From an uncultured Gammaproteobacteria bacterium (lineage in GTDB: Bacteria; Patescibacteriota; Patescibacteriia; Magasanikbacterales; GWA2-37-8): a stretch of 64,000 nt of DNA. Under the pieces are notes generated by a model. The model saw only the letters and a list, made by a program, of their open reading frames with translations, had not been told where the DNA came from and searched no databases. The position numbers were made by a program, and so were the translations under genes. The stretch lies in contig CAYHBZ010000001.1 in the NCBI GenBank assembly GCA_964355175.1, positions 439,400 through 503,399 on the forward strand. Direction: 5' to 3'. Below, piece after piece: positions 10,923-58,619 of this stretch. Every line of letters starts with the position of its first letter. Within the stretch, counting starts at the first letter, position 1.

Positions 10923-11486
10923 TTAGAACGACTGGATGTAGTTGGTGAAAATCGCTTGCGCGATTCGACTGATCTGACCCTCTTGCGAGACGATCTCATA
11001 GTCGTAATCACCGACATACCCCAAAGCCCAGAAACGCTCCAGCTCCTTTTGCGCGCTAGCGAAACGCGCACCGTCGGCATCCCGACCGTCTTTTCCCAAA
11101 CGCTGACGAAGCACGTCGAGCGAAGGCGGAGAAACGTAGATCGAGAACAGTTGACCAGGGAATGCCTGCTTCATGATCGACAGTCGATCGATCGGCCAGT
11201 CCAGCACCGGGAATTTCTCGGCGGACAGAGCCGCTTCAATCGGCAACCTCGGCGTCCCGTAAAGGATTCCGCCGAAGAGTTCGTTGACCACGAGCAGTTC
11301 GCCACGTTGCGACATTGCATCCATCTGGCTACGGCTCACCGAAACCTTATTCCTCTCTCCTTCCCGAAGCGGACGAGTCATGTAGGGACAGATGTAGACG
11401 AAGCGGTCGTCGAGTTTCGACAACTCGTCGATGACAGCACTCTTGCCCACGCCCGACGGACCCAGCAACAGCATGAACCTGCTCAT
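10923..11486 (-). CDS. Guanylate kinase-like NMP kinase, GC-rich
   Basis: P-loop LLLGPSGVGKS, Gmk-like TRPLREGE, and PPSLDVLRQRL / DYDYEIV segments. The start ATG overlaps the upstream stop (TGATG). AGGAGG lies 6 nt upstream. Confidence 0.6.
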   Translation of the reverse strand: MSRFMLLLGPSGVGKSAVIDELSKLDDRFVYICPYMTRPLREGERNKVSVSRSQMDAMSQRGELLVVNELFGGILYGTPRLPIEAALSAEKFPVLDWPIDRLSIMKQAFPGQLFSIYVSPPSLDVLRQRLGKDGRDADGARFASAQKELERFWALGYVGDYDYEIVSQEGQISRIAQAIFTNYIQSF

Positions 11487-13132: not shown

Positions 13133-13156
13133 GGCTATCCTCCTGATGCTTGATGG

Positions 13157-13522
13157 TTACAGATTGGTCGGCGGGTACATCCCGTCGCTCTTCTTCTTGC
13201 CGAAGGAGCCGGGCACCATACGGAAAGCCAGACGATTTTCCGGTTCGTACACCATGGGGGTGGCGATGAGCACATTGCACTGAGGGCAGAGCAGGTTGGG
13301 CAGCGCCTTCTTGTCGAGGGCCTTGCCCTTCAACTCGGCCAAAGTCGGCGGAGCGAAGATGCGATCGACATACATGCGCAAGAGCGCGCCAGGGCCGTCC
13401 TTTTGGTAAAGGGCGACATGGGCGTGGCAAGCGCAGCAGACGATGTTGAGGAAGCGAGAATCGCCTCCACGAGCCCGCGAGTAGCTGTCCCGCTTGGCCT
13501 GAAACTTGATTGGTTCGGTCAT
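13157..13522 (-). CDS. Zn-ribbon protein, GC-rich paralog, first gene of the operon
   Basis: 121 aa. RGGDSRFLNIVCCACHAHVALYQKDGPGALLRMYVDRI...CPQC. 24 nt upstream of the GCHII-like gene. Confidence 0.5.
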   Translation of the reverse strand: MTEPIKFQAKRDSYSRARGGDSRFLNIVCCACHAHVALYQKDGPGALLRMYVDRIFAPPTLAELKGKALDKKALPNLLCPQCNVLIATPMVYEPENRLAFRMVPGSFGKKKSDGMYPPTNL

Positions 13523-25762: not shown

Positions 25763-25770
25763 AATAATAC

Positions 25771-25799
25771 ACCCCTCAATTTTTGAGGGGTGTTTTTTC
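25771..25799 (+). terminator. rplA terminator
   Basis: CCCCTCAA-ttt-TTGAGGGG followed by TGTTTTTT. Confidence 0.6.
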
Positions 25800-25801
25800 G
25801 T

Positions 25802-26833
25802 ATGCTAATAATCGCCACTATTGTACCGAAGACCGAAGAGGCTATTATAAAAAAAATTATTCTCGCCGGAGCTGACGCTCTTAGGTTTAACTTTTTTTAC
25901 GATACAGTTGAAAAAAATATAGAACTAATACAAAGAGCAGACGGCATAATAGACGAACTCAATTCTAAAACCAGAATTTTTGTAGAACTACCATTAAATA
26001 AAATTGCTTTGGGAGATTTTGATCTAAAAATATTTGCTGTAAGAGAGCATGACGAGTTGATTTTTCAATCCGCCCCTTTTTCTCCAGATTGTCACGAATT
26101 TATTCCAGTGGATATTCCGTATTTAGGAGAACAGGTGAGAATTAATCAAACTATCAGTTTGGCCAATGGTAAAATTTCCATGCAGGTAATAGAGATAATT
26201 AATCGTAATACCATTAAAATCAAAATCCTAAACAACGGGGCTATCAAAGCTAAACAAACTTTCAACAACGGGGTCACTCTGCCGGATGAAGTAATGATCG
26301 AAAAATATAAAAAAATCATAAAAAGCATAGAAAATTTACCGATACGCTTTTTGGCTATCCCATATATCAACGAAAATTTCATCAACACCATCAAAAAAAC
26401 CGATTTACTAAGCAAATTGGATCCAAAAACAAAGATCGTCATAAACATAGAGAGGGAAATAAAGAACGCTGAAATAGAAGCATTATGCCAGGATGAAAGC
26501 TTCAACATTATTAATATTGATCGGGGCGAGCTTGGCGTAAATATGGCATTTGAAAGATACGGTATCTATCAGAAAAAAATAATCAACATAGCCAAAAAAT
26601 TTAATAAAAAACTATTTTTTTGTTCACACATTCTGCCGAGTATTATTGATAATTATATACCCGCCCGATCGGATATTGCCGATCTTACATATATAGCCTA
26701 TGAGGATGTCGCGGCTGGCATAATATTTAGTAAAGAGACTGGAGCCAGCAACCGACCGGCTTATGCCATCAGCGCCGCTCGTAAAATTATAAACGAAGTA
26801 GAAAAAGCAAAAAAAATTAATAGTGATTTTTAA
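25802..26833 (+). CDS. Pyruvate kinase-like TIM-barrel protein with no PK C-terminal domain
   Basis: IDRGELGVNM matches PK VARGDLGVE. IFSKETGAS matches PK MLSGETAKG. The N-terminal IATIVPKT..AGADALRFNFFYDT matches PK IVCTIGPAS..AGMNVARLNFSHG. Start moved past the rplA terminator. Confidence 0.5.
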   Translation: MLIIATIVPKTEEAIIKKIILAGADALRFNFFYDTVEKNIELIQRADGIIDELNSKTRIFVELPLNKIALGDFDLKIFAVREHDELIFQSAPFSPDCHEFIPVDIPYLGEQVRINQTISLANGKISMQVIEIINRNTIKIKILNNGAIKAKQTFNNGVTLPDEVMIEKYKKIIKSIENLPIRFLAIPYINENFINTIKKTDLLSKLDPKTKIVINIEREIKNAEIEALCQDESFNIINIDRGELGVNMAFERYGIYQKKIINIAKKFNKKLFFCSHILPSIIDNYIPARSDIADLTYIAYEDVAAGIIFSKETGASNRPAYAISAARKIINEVEKAKKINSDF

Positions 26834-26845
26834 AAATAGGCACCT

Positions 26846-27934
26846 ATGCCCAAAAAATCCGTTAAAAAAATCACTTATCCATCCATTACCGAATGGATCA
26901 AAAGAATTTCTTTACCAAATTCTGAACTTTTTATTAATGAAGACAGAACAAAATACGAACGTCTAAAAATTTTACACAAGGTTATCAATTTACCTTACTT
27001 ACCACCTACTGAATTTACTTCAAAAGAAATCTTGGAACAAAGCAAATCTTTTAAAAAATTTTTTAATAAAAAAAAGAATAATTTGTGCACTCTTCGGTTG
27101 ACCCCATTAATACCCGAACTTTCAAAAATTAGAAAAAGAGGCGGATCTCTGGCAGATAATATAAAATGGTATCTAAAACAAAAAATAGATCATAGCAGCT
27201 ATAAATTGGAGGTTGTCCCTAGAAGTAACAACGTACTCTGGTCAGGAATTTTTGTTGCTGATCACCATGGAATACTCGGAGAAATGAATAAGAGTGGGAT
27301 CACCCAAATGGTAAAAGGCGACCACACTCAAACACCGACTATATTTTCCTATAATTTTAAAGACTGGAAATTTTCAAAAAATAACAAGCGCATCCAAAAA
27401 ATAATTAAAAAAGTAATAAATAAAATACAAATAAAAAATCCAATAAAAAGAGAGAAAATAAAAAATGATCTACAGACTGAATTTACCAAAAATAATTTCA
27501 TGCGCGGTTACTTTGAGTTTACTATCTGGCCCAAATTAGGCCTGCGCTTTGTGGATTACAATCGCTTTCATATTAATATTCAAAAAGAAAAAGACGCTTG
27601 GGAAAAAAATAAAGAAAAGAAAATGATTGGTGTTTGCGCTGGCGTAGGCAAAGCAATTGGCAAAGCAAAAATAATTTTAAACCCAAACAAAAATAACAAA
27701 TTCAAAAAAGGAGACATCTTGGTCTGTAAAAATATTAATATCGATTACCTTCCAATCATCGGGCTAGCTTCCGGAATAATCACCGAAAAAGGCGCCTTAC
27801 TGTCTCACGCCGCTGTGATCTGTCGCGAATTAAAAAAACCTTATATCGTTTTGGTAAAAAACGCTACCACTAAAATTAAAAACAACGAGAAAATTAAAAT
27901 GGATGCCAATACCGGATCGATTCTGAAGATATAA
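26846..27934 (+). CDS. Protein with C-terminal PEP-utilising-enzyme mobile (phosphohistidine) domain, paralog 1
   Basis: C-terminus GIITEKGALLSHAAVICRELKKPYIVLV matches the GGxTSHAAIIARELGxP catalytic-His motif of PEP synthase / PPDK / Enzyme I. The N-terminal about 270 aa are unassigned. Confidence 0.5.
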   Translation: MPKKSVKKITYPSITEWIKRISLPNSELFINEDRTKYERLKILHKVINLPYLPPTEFTSKEILEQSKSFKKFFNKKKNNLCTLRLTPLIPELSKIRKRGGSLADNIKWYLKQKIDHSSYKLEVVPRSNNVLWSGIFVADHHGILGEMNKSGITQMVKGDHTQTPTIFSYNFKDWKFSKNNKRIQKIIKKVINKIQIKNPIKREKIKNDLQTEFTKNNFMRGYFEFTIWPKLGLRFVDYNRFHINIQKEKDAWEKNKEKKMIGVCAGVGKAIGKAKIILNPNKNNKFKKGDILVCKNINIDYLPIIGLASGIITEKGALLSHAAVICRELKKPYIVLVKNATTKIKNNEKIKMDANTGSILKI

Positions 27935-27953
27935 AAATACCTAACCGCTTGCT

Positions 27954-27980
27954 TAACAGGCGGTTTTTTAATACAATTAG
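27954..27980 (+). terminator. Hairpin between the two PEP-utiliser paralogs
   Basis: AACCGC-ttgcttaacag-GCGGTT followed by TTTTT. Confidence 0.45.
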
Positions 27981-27999
27981 TATTATAATTTATAAATTT

Positions 28000-29082
28000 A
28001 TGGCTATTTCTGAAATCATCGATAAACAGATGCCCTCCCTTACTGAGTGGCTAGAGCAGGCCGGATTTAAACAGTCTCAAGAATTCCGCCAAGAAGATAA
28101 TTCAAAGCGTGATCGTTTGGAAATTCTATTTCAAACTACCGGCTTGGCCTATGATCGACCAGCCAAATTTAGCGCACTGGAATTAAAGAATAGAGAACAA
28201 AAATTTACAGAGTTTTTTGATCAAGCCGGTGATAAATTGTGCGCATTAAGATTAATACCACTGACAGCAGAATTACCAAAACTACGCGTTCGTGGAAAAA
28301 CTTTAAAAGAAAATTTACACTGGTTTGACGAACAAAATATTGATGTGGAGAAATATAAAGTAGAGGTGGTTCCACACAGCGGCCATGACCAATTTTCTGC
28401 CACTTTTTTAATCAACGACCACGGCGTAGTAGGAGAAATTGTGCAAGGATTACACTGGCAACTCACCCAAGGCCTGCACGAAAACGAACCTACTTATTTC
28501 AATTTTGACTTTAATAACTGGAATTTTTCTAAAGAAGACAACGAAGCCATAAAATGGTTAAAACAGGCCGTGTCTTCTTTACAAATCACCAAGGATAAAC
28601 AAAATTTAATCCAACAGCAATTATCCGCCGAATTTACCTCTCAAAATTATTTAAAGGGATACTTTGAATTTGTTGTCTGGCCGGATAATAAAATTTATTT
28701 TATAGATTATAATCGAATAATCTATAAATCTTTAAAGGACTTAAAAAGTCATAATTTATCGCCACTCTCTTCTCTATCCGGGATATGCGCTAGCCCAGGA
28801 AAAGTTTCCGGTCTAGCAAAAATAATCTTGGATCCAAAAAATTCCAGCCTAAACGACGGGGATATTTTAATTTGTTCTATGACTATGATTGAATATGTGC
28901 CTCTCATGAAAAAATCCGGTGGGATCATCACAGCCCAAGGGAATATTTTATCCCATGCCGCGATTGTAGCGCGAGAATTAGGAAAGCCTTGTTTGGTAGG
29001 AGTTAAGGACATTTTAACAAAAATAAAAGATGGACAAAATATCACTTTGGATACCGACCAGGGACTGATAATTTTGAACTAA
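28000..29082 (+). CDS. Protein with C-terminal PEP-utilising-enzyme mobile domain, paralog 2
   Basis: GIITAQGNILSHAAIVARELGKPCLVGV. The N-terminal domain is homologous to paralog 1 (LRLIPL...KYKVEVVPHSG). Start moved to MAISEI after the hairpin. Confidence 0.5.
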   Translation: MAISEIIDKQMPSLTEWLEQAGFKQSQEFRQEDNSKRDRLEILFQTTGLAYDRPAKFSALELKNREQKFTEFFDQAGDKLCALRLIPLTAELPKLRVRGKTLKENLHWFDEQNIDVEKYKVEVVPHSGHDQFSATFLINDHGVVGEIVQGLHWQLTQGLHENEPTYFNFDFNNWNFSKEDNEAIKWLKQAVSSLQITKDKQNLIQQQLSAEFTSQNYLKGYFEFVVWPDNKIYFIDYNRIIYKSLKDLKSHNLSPLSSLSGICASPGKVSGLAKIILDPKNSSLNDGDILICSMTMIEYVPLMKKSGGIITAQGNILSHAAIVARELGKPCLVGVKDILTKIKDGQNITLDTDQGLIILN

Positions 29083-29168: not shown

Positions 29169-29660
29169 ATGACTGAAGCACAATACCGTCGTCCCACTTG
29201 GGATGAATATTTCATGGAGGTTTGCCGGGCTGTTGCCAAACGCGCCACTTGTGACCGCGGCCGTAGCGGATGTGTGATTGCCCGAAACAAACAAATCTTG
29301 GTCTCAGGCTACGTAGGCTCACCCAAAGGACTACCCCACTGTGACGAAGTCGGCCACCAGATGAAAACCATGACTCACGAAGACGGCCGCCAGACCCAAC
29401 ACTGCGTCCGCACGGCCCACGCCGAACAAAATGCCATTATCCAAGCCGCCAAAGTGGGTGTCGCGATTAGCGGCGCCACTCTTTATTGCAAAATGACCCC
29501 CTGTGCCGTCTGTGCCAAAATGATCATCAACTCCGGAGTAAAAAAAGTAATCTGCGAAAAACGCTATCATGCCGGCGAAGAAAGCGAAGAGATGTTCCGC
29601 AATGTAGATGTAGAATTGGTTTTTTTTGATGAGAGCGTAGAACAATATTCCAAACAATAA
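29169..29660 (+). CDS. Deoxycytidylate (dCMP) deaminase
   Basis: HAEQNAI and PCAVCAKMI zinc motifs. dCMP deaminase-like length with an N-terminal CDRGRSGCV. Confidence 0.8.
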   Translation: MTEAQYRRPTWDEYFMEVCRAVAKRATCDRGRSGCVIARNKQILVSGYVGSPKGLPHCDEVGHQMKTMTHEDGRQTQHCVRTAHAEQNAIIQAAKVGVAISGATLYCKMTPCAVCAKMIINSGVKKVICEKRYHAGEESEEMFRNVDVELVFFDESVEQYSKQ

Positions 29661-29661
29661 T

Positions 29662-30213
29662 ATGGCAAAATTGATTATCGGAATTATCGGCGAAAATGCT
29701 TCAGGCAAAACTACGGCTACCGAATATCTAAAAAATAAATTCAACGCCATTACTTTTCGTTTTTCCGATATGCTGGGCGATATTTTGAAAAGAATGTATA
29801 TCGAGCCGACCAGAGCCAACTTCCAACTATTATCTACGATATTACGTCAAAATTTTAGCGAAGACATAATGTCCACCGTCATTGCCCAGGATGCCAAAAA
29901 CGCCGCCGCCGATGTAATTATCACTGAAGGGGTGCGCCGTCCGAGCGATGTAATACACTTACGCGAGCTTTCCAATTTTATTTTGATCTATATTAAAACC
30001 GACGAACGCGTGCGCTTTGACCGCCTGGCTAATCGTGGCGAAAAACCCGATGATGCCACCAAAACCTGGGAAGAATTTCAGGCCGAAGGCCAACAAGAAT
30101 CCGAACAAAAAATATTGGAAATTGCCGCCGAAGCCAATTATATTGTCGATAATAACGCCAGTTTAAAGAACACCTATTCTCTACTGGATACTATCGTCGC
30201 CAAATATCTTTAA
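29662..30213 (+). CDS. P-loop nucleotide/nucleoside kinase family protein
   Basis: Walker A GENASGKTT. Small (183 aa) NMP-kinase-like fold. Specificity unknown. Confidence 0.5.
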   Translation: MAKLIIGIIGENASGKTTATEYLKNKFNAITFRFSDMLGDILKRMYIEPTRANFQLLSTILRQNFSEDIMSTVIAQDAKNAAADVIITEGVRRPSDVIHLRELSNFILIYIKTDERVRFDRLANRGEKPDDATKTWEEFQAEGQQESEQKILEIAAEANYIVDNNASLKNTYSLLDTIVAKYL

Positions 30214-30216
30214 ATT

Positions 30217-30648
30217 ATGCAAGTAAAAATCAAGCGCCTGGAAAAATCCCTTCCCCTACCAAAATACCACACCGATGGCTCGGCTGGTTTTGATTTTTAT
30301 GCCGCGCAAGATGTCACTATCACTCCCAAAGAAATCGCCCGCATCCCTACCGGCTTAATCATTGGCACGCCACCCGGATATTTTTTGGCAGTTATAAATC
30401 GCTCCAGTATGCCCCAAAAAAAGGGGCTATCTATGCCCAATGGTGTCGGCGTGATAGATAGCGATTATTGTGGAGAAACTGATGAAATAAAAGTACTAAT
30501 GTATAATTTTACCGAACAACCGGTAACTATTGAAAAAGGTGAACGCATCGCCCAAGGTTTATTTCTAAAGGTAGACCAAGGCGTATGGGAAGAAACGGAA
30601 ACAATGAACGAAGAATCGCGCGGCGGATTTGGGTCTACCGGTAACTAG
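30217..30648 (+). CDS. dut: dUTP diphosphatase
   Basis: GSAGFDFYA, RSSMPQKKGL, GVIDSDYCGE motifs. Confidence 0.9.
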   Translation: MQVKIKRLEKSLPLPKYHTDGSAGFDFYAAQDVTITPKEIARIPTGLIIGTPPGYFLAVINRSSMPQKKGLSMPNGVGVIDSDYCGETDEIKVLMYNFTEQPVTIEKGERIAQGLFLKVDQGVWEETETMNEESRGGFGSTGN

Positions 30649-30869: not shown

Positions 30870-32558
30870 ATGTCTGAACACGGACACTCTCACGAACATC
30901 AGGCTCCCAAAAAACCCAAAACCGAATCATACTTGCCGATAAAAAAAGACACTCCCGTGCCTAGAAAAAAATTAGGGGACAAACTGCGCAATTTTTTTAG
31001 TTTTCACAAATCAGAAAATCCTCAGCTGGAAGAAATTAATTTTTTCAAACATGAATTATTGGACAACAAAGATGCTCTGCTATCCGAGATAAACAACACT
31101 ATTCATAATGAGGCGAGCGCGGTAGCCAATGATATAAAAAATCAAATAAAGATTGTTCATAAGATGTTGGAAAATGGAATGATAAACGGAAAACAAGCCC
31201 AGGAGCTGTCCGAGGCTCTTACCGTGAAACTTCAAGAGGCCAAGGAAGCCGAACAAGCCGTAATAAGCGAACTGACTAGAATAGATCCGGATTTTAACAG
31301 CCATACCGCTCCTCAAGTCAAAGAAAAAAAATCAGCTGAAAAAAGATACAAAAGAGCTTCTGAAATTTTTGCCGCTATCCAAAAAGGTGAAATTATGACC
31401 GCCGATATTTTGACCAAAGAAGAAAAACAGCTAATGATAAATACCCTCACCGAAAAATATAAGGATTTCTCAAATTCCTTTCGACCTCAAGGACAACAAC
31501 CTTACGATGCAGACAAAAGCTACAATAATATAAAAGACGATTCCGAACATGAATATGAATTTTATCTGGATTTGGCCAACCGTATTGGTTTTGATGGAAG
31601 ACTTGATATTTCCAAAAAAGAAAAACCGGCTACCTACACCATGATTATTACCGGACAAAAAAGAAAAAAGGTACCATCTGAAAACCAATCTGCTCCAGCA
31701 AAGCATGATAGCGATAGCCAACCTCACGGCCATGCCAAAGCGGCCGAAGCTCATACCACTCATCCAGCTCCTGTCCACGACAAACATAGCGCTCCAGCCA
31801 TTGTCACTGGTCCACATGAAAGCCATTCTGGCGGCGGTGTAGCTCATGACAAGCCCGATCATCCAGCCAAAGAAGAAAAACCAGAACACGCTCCTGCCCC
31901 AGCCGAAAAAACACCTGACCATACCCACACCGAACCTCCTAAACACGGTCATGGACATGAGACTGAACCGTCCAAACCGAAAACCGACCACCACGCTGAA
32001 AAAGTTGACCACAAACCCGAAACAAAAAAATCAGAACAACTACTTGCGGAAAAATTACGTACCGGTGATCATTTTGTAATCTTAAGAATCGTAAATGCCA
32101 TTTCAAATAAAGAGATTAACAAAGAAAATGTAAATTTTGTACTAAATGAATTGGTATTTAAAGATAAAGTTTTCCCTCAACCTGATAAAATTGTCAGATA
32201 CCTGGTATACAAATCTCTAAAATTAAAAGATTTTGAACTAGCCAAACAAATTGCCGAACTGGGCGACGATGAGGCTCAAAAAGAAATGAATAGAAGTTTG
32301 GTAAAAACAACCGAACTAATCAAAACCGGTCAACTCAATACACCTGAGCAAATCAGACAAAATATCGACGCTATTGCCGATGACAAATTGCGCGATGACA
32401 TTATCATCATAGCGCTCGACAGCATCGCCAAAGTTAATACTGATTTAGCCAAAGAATATTTTGGTAAAATTAGTAGCGAAAGTGCCAAAAATGAGGCTTT
32501 ACTGACATTGTCCGCCGAAAATTCCGATCTGGCAAAAGAATTACGAGCCAACAATTAA
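30870..32558 (+). CDS. Histidine-rich hypothetical protein
   Basis: N-terminus MSEHGHSHEHQ. Central region of about 110 aa carries repeated HxH/HGH motifs. Helical C-terminal domain. Confidence 0.5.
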   Translation: MSEHGHSHEHQAPKKPKTESYLPIKKDTPVPRKKLGDKLRNFFSFHKSENPQLEEINFFKHELLDNKDALLSEINNTIHNEASAVANDIKNQIKIVHKMLENGMINGKQAQELSEALTVKLQEAKEAEQAVISELTRIDPDFNSHTAPQVKEKKSAEKRYKRASEIFAAIQKGEIMTADILTKEEKQLMINTLTEKYKDFSNSFRPQGQQPYDADKSYNNIKDDSEHEYEFYLDLANRIGFDGRLDISKKEKPATYTMIITGQKRKKVPSENQSAPAKHDSDSQPHGHAKAAEAHTTHPAPVHDKHSAPAIVTGPHESHSGGGVAHDKPDHPAKEEKPEHAPAPAEKTPDHTHTEPPKHGHGHETEPSKPKTDHHAEKVDHKPETKKSEQLLAEKLRTGDHFVILRIVNAISNKEINKENVNFVLNELVFKDKVFPQPDKIVRYLVYKSLKLKDFELAKQIAELGDDEAQKEMNRSLVKTTELIKTGQLNTPEQIRQNIDAIADDKLRDDIIIIALDSIAKVNTDLAKEYFGKISSESAKNEALLTLSAENSDLAKELRANN

Positions 32559-32583: not shown

Positions 32584-33456
32584 ATGCAGAACTACCTAGA
32601 TATTGTACAAAAAGTTTTGGCTGAAGGAGTGCAAAAAAATAACCGCACCGGTACCGATGCCCTATCTATCGCCGGCGCTATCTTTGAACACGACATGAGT
32701 TTGGGCTTTCCCCTGCTCACTACCAAAAAAATGCCTCATAAAATAATCGCCTCCGAATTGGAATTTTTTATCAAAGGCATTACCGACAAAACTTGGCTCC
32801 AAGAAAGAAACAACCACATCTGGGATGAATGGGCCTATCCAAAAAAAGCACCCTACGGTCATGACGAAGCCGCCCAGAAAAAAATGAAAGAAGAAAGAGA
32901 CTTGGGCCCTATCTATGGCTTCCAATGGCGTCATTACAATGCTCCTTATTATAGTTTTAATGCCGACTACACCAACCAAGGCGTGGATCAATTCCAGCGT
33001 CTGGTAGACAAGCTCAAAAGCGACCCCAACGATCGCCGCATGATCGTAATGGCCTGGAATCCTTTGGCTTTGCAAGATATGGCCTTGCCTCCTTGCCATT
33101 ATGGCTTTCAGGTTACGGTAATAAAAAACAAATTAAATTTGCTTTGGAACCAACGCTCGGTGGACACTATGCTTGGTCTGCCTTTTAATATCGCCAGCTA
33201 CGCCACCTTACTACACCTCCTGGCCAAAGAAACTGGCTATGAAGAAGGAAAATTGGTAGGCTTTTTGGCCGATGTGCATATTTATATAAATCATCTCGAC
33301 GGCGCGCGCGAACAGCTCACTCGCGATCCAAACACCTATCCTTTGCCAAAAATTATTACTGAAAATTTCACTTCAATTTTTGATTGGCAATATACCGATA
33401 CCAAAATTGAAGGCTACCAAAGTTACCCTCGCATCGAATTACCAATTGCTGTCTAA
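32584..33456 (+). CDS. thyA: Thymidylate synthase
   Basis: PPCHYGFQV active-site Cys. DTMLGLPFNIASYATLLHL. Confidence 0.9.
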   Translation: MQNYLDIVQKVLAEGVQKNNRTGTDALSIAGAIFEHDMSLGFPLLTTKKMPHKIIASELEFFIKGITDKTWLQERNNHIWDEWAYPKKAPYGHDEAAQKKMKEERDLGPIYGFQWRHYNAPYYSFNADYTNQGVDQFQRLVDKLKSDPNDRRMIVMAWNPLALQDMALPPCHYGFQVTVIKNKLNLLWNQRSVDTMLGLPFNIASYATLLHLLAKETGYEEGKLVGFLADVHIYINHLDGAREQLTRDPNTYPLPKIITENFTSIFDWQYTDTKIEGYQSYPRIELPIAV

Positions 33457-33458
33457 AT

Positions 33459-33932
33459 ATGTTTTCTCTCATTGCCGCTATCGCCGAAAATAACTGTATC
33501 GGAAAAAATAATAAAATCCCCTGGAATATTCCGGAGGATTTTCAATATTTCAAAAGAATGACTCTGGGCAAAACCTGCGTCATGGGACAAGCGACTTTCG
33601 AATCCATCCTGGGCTACCTTGGTAAACCGTTGCCAGGACGCCAAAATGTAGTGGTAACTTCCAGAGCAGATTACTCCGCACCGGAAGGAGTATGGATTTT
33701 CCACTCTTTGGACGAAGTATTTGAAAAACTAAAAAACAAAGATGTTTTTATCTGCGGCGGGGCCAGTATTTATCACCAAACGATAGATAAAATGGATAAT
33801 TTATATATCACTCACATTCACCAGTCTTTTGACGGCGACACTTTTTTCCCGGAAATCAATAAAAATATTTGGAAAGAAACCAATCGTGATGACCGTGACG
33901 GTTTTTCTTTTGTCACTTACCAAAAAATTTAA
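33459..33932 (+). CDS. folA: Dihydrofolate reductase
   Basis: LIAAIAENNCIGKNNKIPW N-terminus. 157 aa. Confidence 0.85.
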   Translation: MFSLIAAIAENNCIGKNNKIPWNIPEDFQYFKRMTLGKTCVMGQATFESILGYLGKPLPGRQNVVVTSRADYSAPEGVWIFHSLDEVFEKLKNKDVFICGGASIYHQTIDKMDNLYITHIHQSFDGDTFFPEINKNIWKETNRDDRDGFSFVTYQKI

Positions 33933-33938
33933 ATCAAT

Positions 33939-34643
33939 ATGTTTATAATGATCGACGGTATAGATGGTGGCGGCAAAAGCACTATTATCGACGCTTGGAA
34001 AGAATATTTATCCAACCAAGGTAATGCTATTTTTGATTTAAAAAAATATTTTTTAGAAAATAACCGCTATCCGGAAATTTCCGAAATGGGTCATTATGAT
34101 TTTATTTTTTCAGCAGAGCCGACCCATACCGGAGTGGGCAAAATTTTACGCGACGAGTTGGCTAGCACCAAAAATAATTATCCGCCGGAAATTATTGCCG
34201 AAGCCCACTCGGTGGATCGCATGATTTTATACACCAAAGCAATTATTCCAGCCCTAAAAAATGACCGCATTGTGATTCAGGACCGTGGAATAAGCACTTC
34301 GCTAGCCTATCAACCTTGCCAGGATCCCGCTCTCACGGTGCAAAAAGTGTCTCAATATGCCGGCAATCGCCTGGCCACAGAATACCGACCGGATCATTTG
34401 GTAATCGTGGATATTGATCCACAAGTAGCCTATGACCGCCTCACCTCCCGACACGATAAACAGGATAATGCCGTTTTTGAAAAATTGGATTTCATGAAAA
34501 AATCTGTCGAAAAATTTAAAGACAATGAATTTAAAAACTTCTTTTTAGGATTAGGCACACAGCTTCATTATTTGTCGGGAGAGGAAAAAATTGATATAAT
34601 GAGAGGACAGGCTATAGACCTGCTAAAAACTATTTTAAAATGA
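33939..34643 (+). CDS. tmk: Thymidylate kinase-like P-loop kinase
   Basis: IDGIDGGGKST Walker A typical of dTMP kinase. The lid region is diverged. Confidence 0.6.
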   Translation: MFIMIDGIDGGGKSTIIDAWKEYLSNQGNAIFDLKKYFLENNRYPEISEMGHYDFIFSAEPTHTGVGKILRDELASTKNNYPPEIIAEAHSVDRMILYTKAIIPALKNDRIVIQDRGISTSLAYQPCQDPALTVQKVSQYAGNRLATEYRPDHLVIVDIDPQVAYDRLTSRHDKQDNAVFEKLDFMKKSVEKFKDNEFKNFFLGLGTQLHYLSGEEKIDIMRGQAIDLLKTILK

Positions 34644-37128: not shown

Positions 37129-37157
37129 GGCCACCCGTAATTGGGTGGCTTTTTTTA
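37129..37157 (+). terminator. pyrBI attenuator (intrinsic terminator in the leader)
   Basis: GGCCACCC-gtaatt-GGGTGGC followed by TTTTTTT, about 15 nt before the pyrB ATG. Confidence 0.55.
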
Positions 37158-37171
37158 AACAATTTAAACCT

Positions 37172-38107
37172 ATGGCCACGAACCTCACAGGCAGAGACAT
37201 CATCTCGATAAAAGAAATAGGCAAAAACGAAATCTTGGCGGTTTTAAAAAATGCCAAACAATTAAAAAAGAACCCCCAACCACAACTCCTAAAAAATAAA
37301 GTAATGGCCAGTTGTTTTTTTGAGCCTTCTACTCGCACCCGCCTTTCCTTTGAGAGTGCCATGCAACATTTGGGCGGCTCCGTAATAGGATTTGCCGATC
37401 CGGGCGTCACCTCCACTAAAAAAGGTGAGACTTTGTACGACTCTATAAAAATCATCGGACAATACGCCGATGTCGTAGCTATGCGTCACCCAATGGAAGG
37501 TGCCGCCCGCCGCGCTTCCGATGCTACCGACAAACCAATCTTGAACGGCGGCGACGGTGCCAACCAACATCCAACCCAAACTCTGCTGGATTTATTTACT
37601 ATCCAAGAATGTCAAAAAAAATTAGAGGGGTTGGATATCGCCCTAGTCGGTGATCTAAAATATGGCCGTACTACTCACTCCCTAGCTCAAGCATTGATAC
37701 ATTTTGGCGCGCACTTATATTTTGTGGCGCCCGATTCATTACAAATGCCGGAATATATTTGTGAAGAATTAAAAGAAAATAAAGTGAAATTCTCCCTGCA
37801 TTCCAAAATTGAAGAAGTAATAAACAAAGTAGACATACTATATATGACACGCATTCAAGGCGAACGTTTTGCCGATCCAATGGAATATGAAAAAATAAAA
37901 AATGTCTTTGTGCTCAATGCTAAAATGCTAGAAAAATCTCGTTCTAATATGCGGGTCTTACACCCTCTACCAAGAGTAAACGAAATTACCACTGACGTAG
38001 ACAAAACCAAACATGCCTACTATTTTGAACAAGCGGAGAATGGCTTATATGTGCGCCAGGCCCTTTTAGCGATGGTGCTCGGCAAATTAACTAATACCCT
38101 TAGATAA
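37172..38107 (+). CDS. pyrB: Aspartate carbamoyltransferase catalytic subunit
   Basis: [13 protein letters not shown] and HPLPRVNEI motifs. Start placed at MATNL after the attenuator. The track start of 37145 lies inside the hairpin. Confidence 0.85.
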
Positions 38108-38113
38108 TTTTGT

Positions 38114-38590
38114 ATGAAAAATAAAGAACAAATTCGCGCTTTCAGAGTATTTGCCATCAAAGAAGGTACTGTCATTGATCATATCCCGGCCAAACAAGCT
38201 TTAAAAATTATTCAATTTTTAAAACTATATAACAACGAAAAAATAGTTACTGCTGGCTTTAATTTTCCAAGTAAAACCCTAAAATTAAAAGATATTATCA
38301 AAATAGAAGGACGAGAATTGACAGAAGAGGAGGCCAACCAGGTGGCAATTTTGGCACCTACCGCTACCATCAATATTATTAAAAACTTTGACCTGGTGAA
38401 AAAATTCCCCGTAATGATACCCGCTCAAGTGGAAAAAATAGTTATCTGTCCAAACCCAAAATGCATTACCAATAACGAAAATATGGAAACGATTTTTTAT
38501 ACCAAAGCTCGCGGAGCCAAGGTAGACCTACAGTGTCGTTACTGCGAAAAAACTTTTTCTCAAGATGACATCAAGCAATACCGAGTTTAA
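38114..38590 (+). CDS. pyrI: Aspartate carbamoyltransferase regulatory subunit
   Basis: C-terminal zinc domain CPNPKCITN...CRYCE. Confidence 0.85.
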   Translation: MKNKEQIRAFRVFAIKEGTVIDHIPAKQALKIIQFLKLYNNEKIVTAGFNFPSKTLKLKDIIKIEGRELTEEEANQVAILAPTATINIIKNFDLVKKFPVMIPAQVEKIVICPNPKCITNNENMETIFYTKARGAKVDLQCRYCEKTFSQDDIKQYRV

Positions 38591-38599
38591 TTTCCTGAC

Positions 38600-39787
38600 A
38601 TGAAAATAAAAACTTATAACAATTTAGAAATTGAATTGGATTTGCCTCCCAACTCGGACACTACCAATCTAATAGCTTTACCTGCCCTGATTGATACCCA
38701 CGTGCATTTTCGCACGCCTGGCGCGGAATACAAAGAAAATTGGGAAAGTGGTGCCAAAGCGGCCATTGCCGGCGGCGTGACCAGCGTACTGGATATGCCC
38801 AATAATACTCCGTCTATTACTACCGAGGCAATTTTGGATGAAAAAATAAAAATAGTAGAAGCACAATTAAAAAAGGTTGGCATTCCCCTGCATCCTTATT
38901 TTTATCTTGGCGCCACCTTGGATAATTTGGAAGAAATAGAAAAATGTAAAAATAAAATAATCGGAGTAAAAATATTTATGGGCGCCAGTACCGGTAATTT
39001 ATTGGTATCAGATTACGAAACGCAAAGAAATATTTTTAAAAAATGTGCCGAGCTAAATATAGTAGTGGCTGTACATGCTGAGGATGACGATATCATCAAC
39101 GCTCAAAAAAATAAATTTCCTAGCGCCACCGTAAACGACCACGGAAAAATTCGCCCCAATATTGCGGCCCTGACTGCCGTAAAAAAAGCGATAAATTTGG
39201 CACGCGAAACTGGCGCTATTTTGTATATTCTCCATAGTAGCACTACTGAGGAAATAGCGCTGATTCGCCAAGCCAAAAAAGAAGGACTCCGGGTATTTGC
39301 CGAGGTCACTCCTCACCACCTATTTCTCACTGAGGAGGCCTATGGCACACTTGGCGCCAAAGCGCAGATGAACCCGCCTTTACGCTCCAAAGATGACCAC
39401 AAAGCCCTCTGGGAGGCCATAAAAGACGGCACCGTGGACACCGTAGGTACCGATCATGCTCCCCATACTTTACAGGAAAAAACCTTACCTTATCCACAGT
39501 CACCATCAGGTGTGCCGGGCATTGAAACCTACTTACCACTATTGCTTGACGCCTATAATGCGGGTAAAATTACTTTGGAGAAAATTGTGGAATTAACCCA
39601 TACTAATCCCCAAAAAATCTTTGATATAAAAGAAACCGGTGACCTGGTTTTGGTGGATTTAAACCAAGTGAAAAAAATAAAAAATGAAGATCTAAAAACT
39701 AAATGTGGTTGGAGTCCTTTTGCCGGCAAGGAATTAAAAGGTACGCCAAAATTTACAATTTTAAATAATATAATTTATAAAATTTAA
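38600..39787 (+). CDS. pyrC: Dihydroorotase
   Basis: LIDTHVHFRTPG metal-binding motif. Amidohydrolase fold. Confidence 0.8.
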   Translation: MKIKTYNNLEIELDLPPNSDTTNLIALPALIDTHVHFRTPGAEYKENWESGAKAAIAGGVTSVLDMPNNTPSITTEAILDEKIKIVEAQLKKVGIPLHPYFYLGATLDNLEEIEKCKNKIIGVKIFMGASTGNLLVSDYETQRNIFKKCAELNIVVAVHAEDDDIINAQKNKFPSATVNDHGKIRPNIAALTAVKKAINLARETGAILYILHSSTTEEIALIRQAKKEGLRVFAEVTPHHLFLTEEAYGTLGAKAQMNPPLRSKDDHKALWEAIKDGTVDTVGTDHAPHTLQEKTLPYPQSPSGVPGIETYLPLLLDAYNAGKITLEKIVELTHTNPQKIFDIKETGDLVLVDLNQVKKIKNEDLKTKCGWSPFAGKELKGTPKFTILNNIIYKI

Positions 39788-39790
39788 TCT

Positions 39791-40738
39791 ATGCGTCATC
39801 TCATCTCACTCAAGGAGCAAAGCAAGGAAGATATTTTGAAAATGCTCGATATGGCAATCAAATTAAAAGCTAAACGCCAAGCCAGAGAGTTGACAAATAT
39901 TTTACCAAACCAGACATTGGTAATGCTATTTCAAAAAACTTCTACTCGCACTCGCCTATCATTTGAAGCCGGCATGACAGAGCTTGGCGGTCATGGTATA
40001 TTTTTGGACAGCCGCACCTCACAGCTTTCACTCACTGATTTTGGCGATGAAATTCAAGCTATCATGCGCTTTGGACAAGTGCTAATGTTCCGCGCGCTTA
40101 AAGCCGATGATGTAATCAAAGCCGCGTCATATAATCGCGTACCGGTAATCGATGCTTGTAGCGAAAAATATCATCCAGCTCAAGCCCTGAGTGATTTGCT
40201 CACTATGGCCGAAAAATCAAACGGCATTGAAAATGTAAAAAAAATAACTTGGCTTGGTGTAGAAAATAATGTATCCAACACTCTCATGCTCGCCTGCGCC
40301 AAACTTGGTATCCAAATAGCCATCTGCGCTCCGGAAGCCAACACCCAGAGTATTGATCCGGAATTAAACGCCGTGGCCGAAGCTACCGGCATGGTGACAC
40401 GCACTACCAACCTACAGGAAGCTCTCAAAGACACCAACTATGTACATACCGACACTTGGATGGATATGGAATTTTTTGAAAATGGCCAAGTGAAACCTAG
40501 TTTCCAGGCGGAATATGATCGCCGCAAAACTACGTTTATGCCTTTTCAACTCAACGCCAATTTAATAAATATTTACTCTCCTCAAGCAAAAATAATGCAC
40601 TGTATGCCATGTCACATCGGCTATGAAATTACTCGCGACGCTATTGATCATCCAAATTCCGTAATTTATGATCAGGCCGAAAATCGTATGCATATGCAAA
40701 AGGCGATGATTCTTTGGTTACTGAACAAAGAAGTTTAA
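39791..40738 (+). CDS. Ornithine carbamoyltransferase-like enzyme with non-canonical substrate loop
   Basis: STRTRLSFE carbamoyl-phosphate site. HCMPCH matches OTC HCLP. The OTC DxxxSMG loop is replaced by TDTWMDMEF. Confidence 0.55.
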   Translation: MRHLISLKEQSKEDILKMLDMAIKLKAKRQARELTNILPNQTLVMLFQKTSTRTRLSFEAGMTELGGHGIFLDSRTSQLSLTDFGDEIQAIMRFGQVLMFRALKADDVIKAASYNRVPVIDACSEKYHPAQALSDLLTMAEKSNGIENVKKITWLGVENNVSNTLMLACAKLGIQIAICAPEANTQSIDPELNAVAEATGMVTRTTNLQEALKDTNYVHTDTWMDMEFFENGQVKPSFQAEYDRRKTTFMPFQLNANLINIYSPQAKIMHCMPCHIGYEITRDAIDHPNSVIYDQAENRMHMQKAMILWLLNKEV

Positions 40739-40750
40739 AAAAATAAATTT

Positions 40751-41350
40751 ATGATCAGAGAAGAATTGGTAAATAAACTATTTGAAATCAACGCTGTAAA
40801 ATTTGGCGAGTTCAAACTCAAAAGCGGTATCATGTCGCCAGTATATATCGACCTACGCGTAATTGTTTCCTATCCGGAAGTACTCAAAGCGGTCGGCGAA
40901 GCCATGTGGGAAAAAGTAAAAAATCTAAAATTTGATCTACTCTGTGGCGTACCATATACGGCTCTGCCAATCGCCACGGCTATCTCTCTAAAGCATAATA
41001 TTCCGATGATTATGCGCCGTAAGGAAGTAAAAGATTATGGCACTAGAAAAGCCATTGAAGGCGCTTTCACTGCCGGTCAGCAAGTATTGGTGGTGGAAGA
41101 TTTAGTCACCAGCGGCAGCAGTGTTTTTGAAACCATCGAGCCACTTGAACTCGAAGGATTAAAAATCAACGATGTCATAGTAATGCTTGATCGCGAGCAA
41201 GGCGGCAAAAAACATATCTCTGAAAAAGGAAAGAATTTGCACTCGGTAATTACTATGAGCGAGCTGGTAGATACTCTAGAAAAAAATAATAAATTGGACA
41301 CGCAAACCGTACAAAAAGTGAAAGAATTTATCCAAAACAATCAGGTCTAA
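40751..41350 (+). CDS. pyrE: Orotate phosphoribosyltransferase
   Basis: PRPP-binding VLVVEDLVTSGSS. Confidence 0.85.
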   Translation: MIREELVNKLFEINAVKFGEFKLKSGIMSPVYIDLRVIVSYPEVLKAVGEAMWEKVKNLKFDLLCGVPYTALPIATAISLKHNIPMIMRRKEVKDYGTRKAIEGAFTAGQQVLVVEDLVTSGSSVFETIEPLELEGLKINDVIVMLDREQGGKKHISEKGKNLHSVITMSELVDTLEKNNKLDTQTVQKVKEFIQNNQV

Positions 41351-41351
41351 T

Positions 41352-42170
41352 ATGATAATGGAAAAAGTAAAAAATATTATCGCCAAAAATAATTCGCTGG
41401 TCTGTGTGGGATTAGATACGGAAATTTCCAAAATTCCCGCTCATTTAAAAAATGTAGAATTTCCTCAATTTGAATTCAACAAAGCCATTATTGACGCCAT
41501 TGCCGATTTAGTATGCGCCTTTAAACCCAACACTGCCTTTTACGAAGCTCAAGGCGAGCAAGGAATACACGAACTAAAAATGACCTGCAATTATTTGAAA
41601 GAAAAATATCCAGCAGTACTTTTAATCCTCGATGCCAAACGCGCCGACATTGGGAATACCAACAACGGCTATGTAAAATTTGCTTTTGATTATTTGCAGG
41701 CCGACATGATTACTCTTCACCCCTACTTGGGACAAGAAGCACTCGCGCCATTTCTAGACCGCGCCGATAAAGGCAGTGCCATTCTGTGTCGCACTTCCAA
41801 TATTGGCGCCGGAGAATTTCAAGATCTGAGAATAAACAACAAGAGTCTATTTGAAATAGTAGCCGAAAAAGTGGTAAAACTTTGGAATACAAATAATAAT
41901 TGTTTATTGGTAATAGGAGCCACTTATCCTGAAGAAATGGAACTGATCAGATCCAAAACCGACACTATGTTTTTCTTGGTTCCAGGCATTGGCGCTCAAG
42001 GCGGCGATCTGGAAAAAACTTTATTATCCGGATTAAATTCAGAAAAAAGTGGTTTGATAATTAGTTCTTCCCGTGGCATAATTTTTGCCGACAACACCGA
42101 AAATTTTGCCATCAAAGCGCGCGAGGAAGCGCTGAAATTAAAGGATGAAATTAATAAATACAGAATCTAA
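41352..42170 (+). CDS. pyrF: Orotidine-5'-phosphate decarboxylase, type 2
   Basis: VGLD and LILDAKRADIGNT motifs. Last gene of the pyr operon. Confidence 0.85.
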   Translation: MIMEKVKNIIAKNNSLVCVGLDTEISKIPAHLKNVEFPQFEFNKAIIDAIADLVCAFKPNTAFYEAQGEQGIHELKMTCNYLKEKYPAVLLILDAKRADIGNTNNGYVKFAFDYLQADMITLHPYLGQEALAPFLDRADKGSAILCRTSNIGAGEFQDLRINNKSLFEIVAEKVVKLWNTNNNCLLVIGATYPEEMELIRSKTDTMFFLVPGIGAQGGDLEKTLLSGLNSEKSGLIISSSRGIIFADNTENFAIKAREEALKLKDEINKYRI

Positions 42171-58618: not shown

Positions 58619-58619
58619 A

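What the first reader, a model, noticed from the sequence alone, without database searches (positions are those of the whole stretch)
25802..29082. Pyruvate-kinase-like barrel gene followed by two paralogs ending in a PEP-utiliser phosphohistidine domain: a candidate split PEP-dependent phosphotransfer system
ORF 25802-26833 aligns to the PK A-domain barrel (RGELG matches RGDLG; SKETG matches SGETA) but lacks the PK C-terminal regulatory domain. Immediately downstream are two tandem paralogs, separated only by a hairpin. Their last about 80 aa carry the catalytic-His signature (G..LSHAA(V/I)..REL.KP) of the swivelling domain of PEP synthase, PPDK and Enzyme I. Their shared N-terminal about 270-aa domain is unassigned. 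The arrangement resembles a PEP synthase or PPDK broken into separate polypeptides, or a PEP-dependent small-molecule kinase in the style of rifampin phosphotransferase, with the PEP/pyruvate barrel supplied in trans.
Basis: partly seen in the sequence, partly recalled or inferred. Interest (0 to 1): 0.6.

Follow-up and report, generated by a model that had tools for sequence, protein, structure and literature searches.

The report
Split phosphohistidine relay with pyruvate-kinase barrel
Three adjacent genes of a Patescibacteria-type bacterium look like a dismantled phosphate-shuttling enzyme: a stripped-down pyruvate-kinase barrel sits where relatives carry an ATP-binding donor domain, next to two carrier proteins whose target-binding domain has not been described, inside a pyrimidine-nucleotide gene cluster.

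Summary
ORF 25802-26833 is a pyruvate-kinase (PK) A/B barrel with no C-domain. ORFs 26846-27934 and 28000-29082 are paralogs (39% identity) that end in a PEP-utiliser swivel domain with the catalytic His, and a terminator-like hairpin separates them.

The unassigned N-terminal domain of about 250 aa ("NDOM") models with high confidence as an ATP-grasp fold. Its best structural matches are the dikinase type (HpeI, rifampin phosphotransferase, PPDK). It has no sequence-level link to PPDK_N.

The decisive result is architectural. In relatives, NDOM+swivel is fused behind a canonical PPDK_N domain, or a PPDK_N gene lies immediately upstream. One relative is a PK-barrel-NDOM-swivel fusion in the same synteny. 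So the PK barrel holds the donor position and NDOM holds the acceptor position of an RPH/HpeHI-style dikinase.

- Only 23 of 43 informative PK-short loci carry a swivel gene.
- The window's PK-like protein has lost Lys270 and Arg120, yet it is under purifying selection.
- The acceptor is unknown. The pyrimidine/dNTP context and several fusions hint at a nucleotide.

I rate it an uncharacterised new variant of a known enzyme class.

The parts
25769..25793 (.). Terminator-like palindromic hairpin (11 bp stem) between rplA (L1, 25076-25762) and the PK-like gene
25802..26833 (+). PK-short: pyruvate-kinase A+B barrel, 343 aa, no C-domain. Active-site changes relative to canonical PK (rabbit numbering): K270N (VINIERE), R120A (NKIALG), S77F (NFFYD), D296E (DRGELG), T328S/E332P (CSHILPS). 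R73, E272, S362 and E364 are kept.
   Evidence: dN/dS 0.074 against the 83%-identical ortholog
26846..27934 (+). Paralog A ('A-type' acceptor module), 362 aa: divergent ATP-grasp-like NDOM (about aa 1-255) plus swivel domain (aa 286-357). Catalytic His321 is at nt 27806-27808. It starts 12 nt after the PK-short stop.
   Evidence: dN/dS 0.052
27943..27965 (+). Intrinsic-terminator-like hairpin with T-run between the two paralogs
28000..29082 (+). Paralog B ('B-type' acceptor module, the widespread conserved form), 360 aa: NDOM aa 1-250 (nt 28000-28749) plus swivel domain (about aa 285-355). Catalytic His319 is at nt 28954-28956. Family-invariant NDOM residues: E16 W17 E32 D33 R39 R96 G145 G158 G220 Y221 E223 D236; nearly invariant: K36 R84 K94 R98 H126 E146 N238 R239.
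   Evidence: dN/dS 0.090
29169..29660 (+). dCMP deaminase (context). A B-type swivel protein is fused to this enzyme in P0035.
29662..30213 (+). Small P-loop kinase (AAA_17/AAA_18, weak dNK/DNMK/Tmk similarity) (context)
30217..30648 (+). dUTPase (context)
32584..34643 (+). ThyA (32584-33456), DHFR (about 33459-33932) and thymidylate kinase (33939-34643): the rest of the conserved dTTP-pathway cluster (context)

Best explanation
The locus encodes a split phosphohistidine-relay phosphotransferase of the dikinase class (PEP synthase / PPDK / rifampin phosphotransferase / HpeHI).

Each paralog is an acceptor module. A very divergent ATP-grasp-like domain (NDOM, no Pfam model) is followed by a swivel domain whose His (H321 in A, H319 in B) carries the phosphoryl group. 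The modules have no recognised donor domain of their own (inferred from architecture). In relatives the donor is a canonical PPDK_N ATP-grasp, either fused in front of NDOM or encoded by the gene immediately upstream. In the Magasanikbacteria-type lineage that same position is held by a C-domain-less pyruvate-kinase barrel.

Proposed mechanism (inferred):
1. The donor domain charges the swivel His, from PEP on the PK barrel or from ATP on PPDK_N.
2. The swivel domain carries the phosphate to NDOM.
3. NDOM passes it to a bound, phosphate-rich acceptor. This is probably a (deoxy)nucleotide, given the fold, the Mg/phosphate-type conserved residues and the pyrimidine/dNTP gene context.
4. Two modules (A and B) share one donor, as in the multi-module fused relatives.

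Shown here: the folds, domain orders, fusions, synteny and purifying selection. Inferred: the direction of transfer, PEP as donor, and the acceptor. In this particular genome the PK-like protein has lost Lys270 and Arg120. Its donor chemistry may therefore be altered or lost, and it may act mainly as a docking subunit.
For: Fold:

Architecture:
- A profile search with NDOM against 1.84 billion representatives gave 252 hits.
- Eighteen of the longer hits were checked and carry PPDK_N. Those whose domain order was resolved read PPDK_N-NDOM-swivel, or PPDK_N followed by two to six [domain+swivel] modules.
- One hit, P0279, is PK-short-NDOM-swivel. It lies in the same synteny, L1 -> fusion -> dCMP deaminase -> kinase -> dUTPase -> ThyA. 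The second half has no in-frame start codon at the junction.

Gene neighbourhood:
- Standalone PPDK_N genes lie directly upstream of B-type genes in L004 and L007. A PPDK_N-X-swivel gene lies upstream in L167.
- PK-short is followed by a swivel gene in 23 of 43 informative metagenome loci, usually with gaps of 0-30 nt.
- In the PK-anchored loci, every divergent A-type copy lies directly after PK-short.
- In the window, PK-short and paralog A are 12 nt apart and are bracketed by terminator-like hairpins.

Selection:
- All three genes are under purifying selection (dN/dS 0.05-0.09, like their neighbours).

Precedent:
- HpeHI is a two-component dikinase with a separate ATP-grasp subunit and a subunit carrying the acceptor domain plus swivel (PMC12167813). 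RPH has the order ATP-grasp / acceptor domain / swivel (PMC4844700).

Nucleotide link:
- The window cluster runs from dCMP deaminase to Tmk, then pyrB/C/E/F.
- Fusions exist to dCMP deaminase (P0035) and to an ITPase/XTPase-type NTPase (P0265).
- Neighbours include NT5C, NUDIX and HAD enzymes.
Against: - There is no biochemical evidence, and no multimer model could be run.
- The PK fusion is a single sequence from one assembly.
- 20 of 43 informative PK-short loci lack any swivel gene. PK-short keeps its place next to dCMP deaminase regardless, so it must also work without them.
- Swivel genes occur with no donor gene nearby (L002, L006, L168).
- The window's PK-like protein and its closest relatives have K270N. 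E272 is also lost in P0123 and L087, and R120 is lost in three of the four. Mutation of the equivalent Lys is described as impeding phosphoryl transfer in B. subtilis PykA (PMC9009071).
- NDOM keeps ATP-grasp-type phosphate/Mg residues, so it could itself load the His from a nucleotide.
- The fused PPDK_N-NDOM-swivel genes that I looked up are not in nucleotide-metabolism contexts.
Confidence: 0.45

Rival explanations
1. Split PEP synthase / PPDK. NDOM is the ATP/AMP-binding domain, the swivel His is the carrier, and the PK barrel replaces the PEP-utilizers_C TIM barrel as the pyruvate/PEP site. Together they catalyse ATP + pyruvate <-> AMP + PEP (+Pi/PPi). If the acceptor in the main explanation were AMP, this would be the same machine run in reverse.
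For: - The best structural matches of NDOM are dikinase ATP-grasps.
- Conserved K/R/E...D-x-N-type residues are present.
- The PK barrel binds PEP/pyruvate in canonical enzymes.
- Barrel and swivel genes are adjacent, and one fusion exists.
- NCBIfam's best partial hits for the swivel region are PEP synthases.
Against: - Many relatives are PPDK_N-NDOM-swivel: two ATP-grasp domains and no pyruvate domain. This puts NDOM in the acceptor slot.
- hhalign finds no sequence relationship between NDOM and PPDK_N.
- PK-short occurs without swivel genes in about half of the loci.
- The window's barrel lacks Lys270 and Arg120.
- The locus sits in a nucleotide cluster, not a glycolysis or gluconeogenesis cluster.
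Confidence: 0.2
2. Functionally independent neighbours. PK-short is a stand-alone, unregulated pyruvate kinase that serves the pyrimidine cluster as a PEP-driven (d)NDP kinase. The swivel proteins are separate enzymes of the same pathway that obtain phosphate elsewhere (their own ATP-grasp, or a distant donor). Adjacency reflects shared metabolism rather than direct phosphotransfer.
For: - PK-short always lies between rplA and dCMP deaminase, with or without swivel genes.
- Most PK-short proteins keep the canonical catalytic motifs (KIE, DRGELG, STQILES).
- The PK active site is reported to phosphorylate (d)NDPs promiscuously (PMC9009071).
- Other nucleotide enzymes (NUDIX, cytidine deaminase-like) occupy the same slot in some loci.
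- B-type genes occur without PK.
Against: - The in-frame PK-NDOM-swivel fusion.
- The parallel with PPDK_N in the identical position.
- In the PK-anchored loci every A-type copy lies directly after PK-short, with near-zero spacing.
- The window's PK-like protein lacks Lys270 and Arg120, and a large swivel-less subgroup has D296K/K270R. A plain PK/NDP-kinase role is therefore doubtful for many members.
Confidence: 0.25
3. Regulatory pairing. The swivel domain acts like the PEPut extension of Bacillus-type pyruvate kinases. It modulates the PK-like protein, or reports metabolic state, rather than carrying phosphate to a substrate.
For: - PEPut regulates B. subtilis PykA activity (PMC9009071).
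Against: - The regulatory Thr of the TSH motif is Leu here (LSH).
- A strictly conserved 250-aa NDOM with catalytic-looking residues is not explained.
- The same module is fused to PPDK_N, where no PK is present.
Confidence: 0.05

Closest known systems
HpeHI and phenylphosphate-synthase-type two-component small-molecule dikinases
   Different: The donor-position gene here is a PK barrel, not a PPDK_N ATP-grasp. The acceptor domain is ATP-grasp-like, not RIF-binding-domain-like. The context is nucleotide metabolism, not aromatic catabolism.
Rifampin phosphotransferase (RPH)
   Same: The domain order is donor / acceptor domain / C-terminal swivel His. This is reproduced exactly by the fused relatives PPDK_N-NDOM-swivel and PK-NDOM-swivel. 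The swivel domain matches at E about 1e-17.
PEP synthase / pyruvate phosphate dikinase
   Same: A swivel phosphohistidine domain (best sequence hits, E 3e-19), an ATP-grasp fold of the dikinase type, and a PEP/pyruvate-binding barrel as partner.
   Different: There is no PEP-utilizers_C barrel, and a PK-family barrel on a separate polypeptide takes its place. The domain order differs (the swivel is C-terminal). No PPDK_N signature is detectable by Pfam or hhalign. There is no regulatory Thr before the Ser-His.
Bacillus/Geobacillus/Staphylococcus pyruvate kinase with a fused PEPut domain
   Same: The only described natural association of a PK catalytic barrel with a PEP-utiliser swivel domain (2e28, 3t05).
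   Different: Those enzymes keep the C-domain and all catalytic residues. The PEPut follows the C-domain directly, with no ATP-grasp-like domain, and acts in regulation.
Succinyl-CoA synthetase / NDP-forming acyl-CoA synthetase / ATP-citrate lyase
   Different: The His sits on a loop of a different subunit fold. There is no swivel PEP-utiliser domain and no homology beyond the ATP-grasp fold.

Membership tests
Pyruvate kinase (EC 2.7.1.40) | PK A/B barrel domain (PF00224) | tested here: met
   E=7.7e-30, HMM positions 4-327 of 328. PDB PKs match down to E=1e-19.
Pyruvate kinase (EC 2.7.1.40) | C-terminal alpha/beta domain (PF02887) used for tetramerisation and allostery | tested here: not met
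   The protein ends at aa 343. Canonical PKs in A2 continue for about 130 aa and carry PF02887.
Pyruvate kinase (EC 2.7.1.40) | Catalytic Lys270 and the nucleotide/phosphate-contacting Arg120 (rabbit numbering) | tested here: not met
   VINIERE (K->N) and NKIALG (R->A) in the window. The same K->N is found in P0122, P0123 and L087. Most other PK-short proteins keep KIE and NKIR.
Pyruvate kinase (EC 2.7.1.40) | Mg2+ ligands Glu272 and Asp296, and PEP-binding Arg73 | tested here: inconclusive
   R73 and E272 are present. D296 is Glu across most of the PK-short clade (DRGELG), although subgroup II has Lys there (NRGKLGL). The effect on catalysis is unknown.
Pyruvate kinase (EC 2.7.1.40) | Score above the curated NCBIfam equivalog or subfamily cut-offs | tested here: not met
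   Best scores are 133 bits against a cut-off of 432 (NF004491) and 125.5 against 306.4 (TIGR01064).
PEP synthase / PPDK | PPDK_N nucleotide-binding domain recognisable by sequence | tested here: not met
   No Pfam hit in the N-terminal 270 aa. hhalign against a PEPS N-domain profile gives probability below 1%. Only the fold is similar.
PEP synthase / PPDK | Swivel phosphohistidine domain with the catalytic His | tested here: met
   PF00391 hits at E=1.4e-19 and 4.6e-23. The His is invariant in alignment A1.
PEP synthase / PPDK | PEP-utilizers_C TIM barrel on the same polypeptide | tested here: not met
   Both paralogs end within 5 aa of the swivel domain.
RPH / HpeHI-type small-molecule dikinases | Acceptor-binding domain followed by a C-terminal swivel His domain | tested here: met
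   Domain order NDOM-swivel. In fusions NDOM lies between the donor and the swivel.
RPH / HpeHI-type small-molecule dikinases | PPDK_N-type ATP-grasp donor (fused, or a partner subunit) | tested here: not met
   None was found in the annotated parts of the window or in the locus, where a PK barrel holds the donor position. PPDK_N is present in relatives (L004, L007, L167, P0275 and others).
RPH / HpeHI-type small-molecule dikinases | Acceptor domain homologous to the RIF-binding domain | tested here: not met
   NDOM is an ATP-grasp fold. Full-length RPH scores no better than its ATP domain alone.
RPH / HpeHI-type small-molecule dikinases | ATP-dependent phosphorylation of a small molecule through the His | not testable with these tools
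   This needs enzyme assays.
PTS Enzyme I | HPr-binding subdomain and a PEP-utilizers_C barrel | tested here: not met
   Only the swivel subdomain matches (E about 1e-3 to 1e-9).

The most novel reading that the evidence does not exclude
NDOM+swivel modules are a previously unrecognised route to nucleoside triphosphates in reduced-genome Patescibacteria and DPANN archaea. A donor domain (PPDK_N with ATP or, uniquely, a PK barrel with PEP) charges a swivel His. The His then phosphorylates (deoxy)nucleoside mono- or diphosphates bound in a second, diverged ATP-grasp site. Different modules (A-type, B-type, and up to six per polypeptide) would handle different nucleotides. The PK-barrel version would be the first PEP:His phosphotransfer catalysed by a pyruvate-kinase-family barrel.
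Probability: 0.2. Interest if true: 0.85.

Novelty: new variant of a known kind. Interest (0 to 1): 0.62.

Why it matters
If the model holds, three points follow.
- A pyruvate-kinase barrel can be swapped for the ATP-grasp donor of a dikinase. That would extend the known modularity of PEP-utilising enzymes, and it would give the puzzling PK-PEPut association of Firmicutes a mechanistic relative.
- There is a sizeable, unannotated family in Patescibacteria and DPANN: 252 representatives at 50% identity, and more than 1000 clusters at 90%. It is built from a new ATP-grasp-derived acceptor domain plus a swivel His, and it is sometimes chained into polypeptides with up to six modules.
- Because the family sits in pyrimidine/dNTP clusters and fuses to nucleotide enzymes, it may fill gaps in nucleotide phosphorylation in organisms with minimal genomes.

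All of this can be tested directly with recombinant proteins.

Tried and rejected
- The genome-contig scan with the family alignment used the generic swivel motif. It returned mostly ordinary PEP synthases. Only L007-L009 were useful, though the PEPS genes later served to build a PPDK_N profile.
- hhalign of NDOM against PPDK_N, and against the 450-500-aa PPDK_N+swivel proteins of CPR/DPANN, gave no signal, and a forced global alignment was meaningless. The NDOM-PPDK_N motif equivalences I suspected (K36~Lys22, R84~Arg117, E223~Glu297 of RPH) therefore remain unverified and are not used as evidence.
- A profile search of the full family against PDB sequences hit only the swivel domain.
- The afdb50 library was unavailable.
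- I tested whether loss of PK catalytic residues tracks the presence of swivel genes. It does not. Most PK-short proteins next to A-type genes are canonical, and a large swivel-less subgroup is the most degenerate.
- I looked for a PK remnant in the L1-swivel gap of L006 and found none.
- I asked whether the PK-like gene is a decaying pseudogene. This is rejected: the ORF is intact and dN/dS is 0.07.
- I asked whether NDOM is a diverged PK C-domain. This is rejected by the fold searches.
- Literature searches for the system in CPR or Magasanikbacteria found nothing relevant.
- A homolog search with paralog A found 26 proteins and no PK fusions.


Full report
OBSERVATION

The window is from a Patescibacteria (CPR) genome close to Candidatus Magasanikbacteria. 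Identical proteins lie on a 953,736-bp NCBI contig, and named homologs are almost all Magasanikbacteria or other Patescibacteria.

- ORF 25802-26833 (343 aa) matches the Pfam PK barrel over its whole length (E=7.7e-30, HMM 4-327 of 328). It therefore holds the A and B domains.
- It stops where canonical PKs continue with the about 130-aa C-domain.
- It scores far below NCBIfam's PK cut-offs (133 against 432 bits).
- ORFs 26846-27934 (362 aa, "A") and 28000-29082 (360 aa, "B") are 39% identical (E=7e-89). The ATG at 28000 is the start used by all homologs, rather than the TTG at 27949.
- Both end in a PEP-utilizers swivel domain with the catalytic His.
- A terminator-like hairpin (27943-27965) separates A from B. 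Another (25769-25793) separates rplA from the PK-like gene. PK-like and A are 12 nt apart.

THE UNASSIGNED DOMAIN

The N-terminal domain of about 250 aa (NDOM) has no Pfam, NCBIfam or PDB sequence match, even with a family profile.

At the sequence level there is no detectable relation to PPDK_N (hhalign probability below 1%).

The family-invariant residues are rich in charged groups (E32 D33 K36 R39, R84, K94 R96 R98, E146, E223, D236 N238 R239). E223 and D236/N238 lie on the last beta-hairpin of the domain. From my own knowledge of the fold, that is where classical ATP-grasp enzymes place their Mg2+ ligands. I did not verify this with coordinates.

ARCHITECTURES ELSEWHERE (THE KEY RESULT)

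A profile of NDOM alone, searched against 1.84 billion representative proteins, found 252 relatives. Most are NDOM+swivel proteins of about 360 aa. The longer ones, analysed with Pfam and local HMMs, have these architectures:
- PPDK_N-NDOM-swivel (P0275, P0284, P0301, P0321; P0285 carries the same Pfam domains with matching NDOM coordinates).
- PPDK_N-X-swivel-NDOM-swivel (P0271, P0283, P0300).
- Three to six [domain+swivel] modules behind one PPDK_N (P0270, P0272, and P0330 at 2648 aa).
- NDOM-NDOM-swivel (P0264).
- ITPase/XTPase-type NTPase + methyltransferase + NDOM + swivel (P0265).
- One PK-short-NDOM-swivel fusion (P0279, 729 aa).

P0279 lies on a 5.9-kb contig in exactly the window's synteny: L1, the fusion, dCMP deaminase, a kinase, dUTPase, ThyA. 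At the junction there is no in-frame ATG, GTG or TTG from which the second half could start on its own. That argues against a trivial artefact. It is nevertheless a single sequence.

Where the proteins are split, a standalone PPDK_N gene lies immediately upstream of the B-type gene in a Saccharimonadales genome (L007) and in L004. A PPDK_N-X-swivel gene lies upstream in L167.

Hence NDOM occupies the slot that the rifampin-binding (acceptor) domain holds in RPH and HpeH (PMC4844700; PMC12167813). The PK barrel occupies the slot of the ATP-grasp donor.

CO-CONSERVATION

Fifty metagenome loci were retrieved through PK-short. All that extend far enough upstream show rplA directly or shortly before PK-short. 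In almost all that extend downstream (not L098 or L120), the dCMP deaminase / P-loop kinase / dUTPase / ThyA series follows.

Of the 43 loci informative downstream:
- 23 have a swivel gene after PK-short: 21 directly, and 2 after a NUDIX or cytidine-deaminase-like gene.
- 20 have none.
- Two copies occur in L089, L092 and L099, as well as in the window and its 83%-identical relative L169.
- Some loci are near-duplicates of each other, so these are counts and not independent events.

Clustering separates two forms. The conserved B-type is found across CPR and DPANN-like genomes and carries the motifs PH, GE and HWQLTQG. Several divergent A-type lineages, in these loci, always lie directly after PK-short.

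B-type genes also occur without any donor gene nearby. L006 is fused to dCMP deaminase, L002 follows NUDIX and an IMPase-like gene, and L168 precedes an NT5C 5'-deoxynucleotidase.

The association is frequent and is reinforced by a fusion, but it is not obligatory.

THE PK-LIKE PROTEIN OF THIS WINDOW

Across the PK-short clade most members keep the canonical PK motifs (RxNFSY, NKIR, KIE, DRGELG, STQILES, ETA). The window's sub-lineage is different.
- K270N is present in all four members (window, P0122, P0123, L087).
- E272 is lost in two of them.
- R120 is lost in three.
- S77F and T328S also occur.

A large subgroup without swivel genes is even more altered (K270R, D296K). The equivalent Lys is the phosphoryl-transfer residue probed by K220A in B. 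subtilis PykA (PMC9009071).

Yet against L169 the PK-like gene has dN/dS 0.074. Paralog A has 0.052, B has 0.090, and the neighbours range from 0.02 to 0.09. dS is near saturation, so the ratios are rough. The protein is maintained, but probably not as a standard pyruvate kinase.

CONTEXT

Downstream of the three genes lie dCMP deaminase, a small P-loop kinase, dUTPase, ThyA, DHFR and Tmk. Further on are two ATCase/OTCase paralogs, a dihydroorotase-like amidohydrolase, PyrE and PyrF.

Together with the dCMP-deaminase and NTPase fusions and the NT5C, NUDIX and HAD neighbours, this points to nucleotide metabolism. However, the two fused PPDK_N-NDOM-swivel genes that I looked up sit in unrelated contexts.

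INTERPRETATION

The best-supported reading is a split RPH/HpeHI-style phosphohistidine relay. A donor domain (here the PK barrel, elsewhere PPDK_N) charges the swivel His. The His delivers the phosphate to an acceptor bound on NDOM. Two acceptor modules share one donor, as in the multi-module fusions.

The acceptor is unknown. The ATP-grasp fold, the basic and acidic conserved residues, and the genomic context make a (deoxy)nucleotide the leading candidate. The step His~P + NDP -> NTP at an ATP-grasp site has a precedent in succinyl-CoA synthetase-type enzymes (my own knowledge).

Rival readings:
- A split PEP synthase / PPDK, with NDOM as the ATP site. This is chemically the reverse of the same machine if the acceptor is AMP.
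- Independent enzymes that merely share a pathway, with PK-short as a (d)NDP kinase.
- A PEPut-like regulatory pairing.

I put about 0.45 on the relay with PK-short as functional partner, 0.2 on the PEPS/PPDK version, 0.25 on independence and 0.05 on regulation. For this particular genome the loss of Lys270 and Arg120 is the main unresolved conflict.

NOVELTY AND VERDICT

I found no paper on the family, the domain or the PK association. Public records call the proteins "PEP-utilizing enzyme", "pyruvate kinase" or hypothetical.

The enzyme class is known. What is new is the ATP-grasp-derived acceptor domain, the chained modules, and a PK barrel in the donor position. I classify it as a new variant of a known kind, with moderately high interest (0.62).

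Noticed in passing
window 10900-13200 (minus strand): A GC-rich island (GC 0.49-0.52 against about 0.40 for the window). It encodes a guanylate-kinase-like protein (10923-11555), an OMP-decarboxylase/HUMPS-family protein (11486-12322) and a GTP cyclohydrolase II-like protein (12323-13132). Long mirror ORFs lie on the plus strand. It may be a horizontally acquired nucleotide-related trio.
   Followed up: partly
window 30870-32558 (+): A 562-aa His/Pro/Lys-rich ORF with no Pfam hit, inserted between dUTPase and ThyA. It is absent at this position in the 83%-identical relative L169, where ThyA follows dUTPase directly.
   Followed up: partly
loci L115-L129 (PK-short 'subgroup II'): A large group of PK-barrel-only proteins with NRGKLGL (Mg2+ ligand Asp296 replaced by Lys), K270R and N75S. 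They have no swivel neighbour but hold the same rplA-to-dCMP-deaminase position. They cannot be ordinary pyruvate kinases, and their role is unexplained.
   Followed up: partly
L009:2-2515; P0330, P0270, P0272: [Domain+swivel] modules chained in single polypeptides, with up to six swivel domains behind one PPDK_N in a 2648-aa protein. At least three NDOM+swivel-type units are fused in L009. The intervening domains of about 230-390 aa other than NDOM were not characterised.
   Followed up: partly
window 37145-42170 (+): A de novo pyrimidine block with two ATCase/OTCase-family paralogs (37145-38107 and 39791-40738) flanking an amidohydrolase (dihydroorotase-like, 38600-39787). PyrE and PyrF follow, and PurD lies at 46506-47834.
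   Followed up: no
window 60727-60825 (+): A SAM (S-box) riboswitch aptamer, 57 bits against a gathering score of 44.4. The downstream gene was not examined.
   Followed up: no
window 61743-62696 (-); L004:10774-11784: A CofD/YvcK-family gene in the window. A CofD gene also lies about 0.5 kb downstream of the PPDK_N + swivel gene trio in L004. This may be coincidence.
   Followed up: no
L093:7990-9085: The A-type swivel gene after PK-short is split into two overlapping ORFs (203 and 166 aa). This is either a frameshift or pseudogene, or a sequencing error.
   Followed up: no
window 57722-59762 (-): A pair of succinyl-CoA-synthetase / ATP-citrate-lyase-like subunits: CoA_binding/Ligase_CoA, and ATP-grasp_2 + Citrate_bind.
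   Followed up: no
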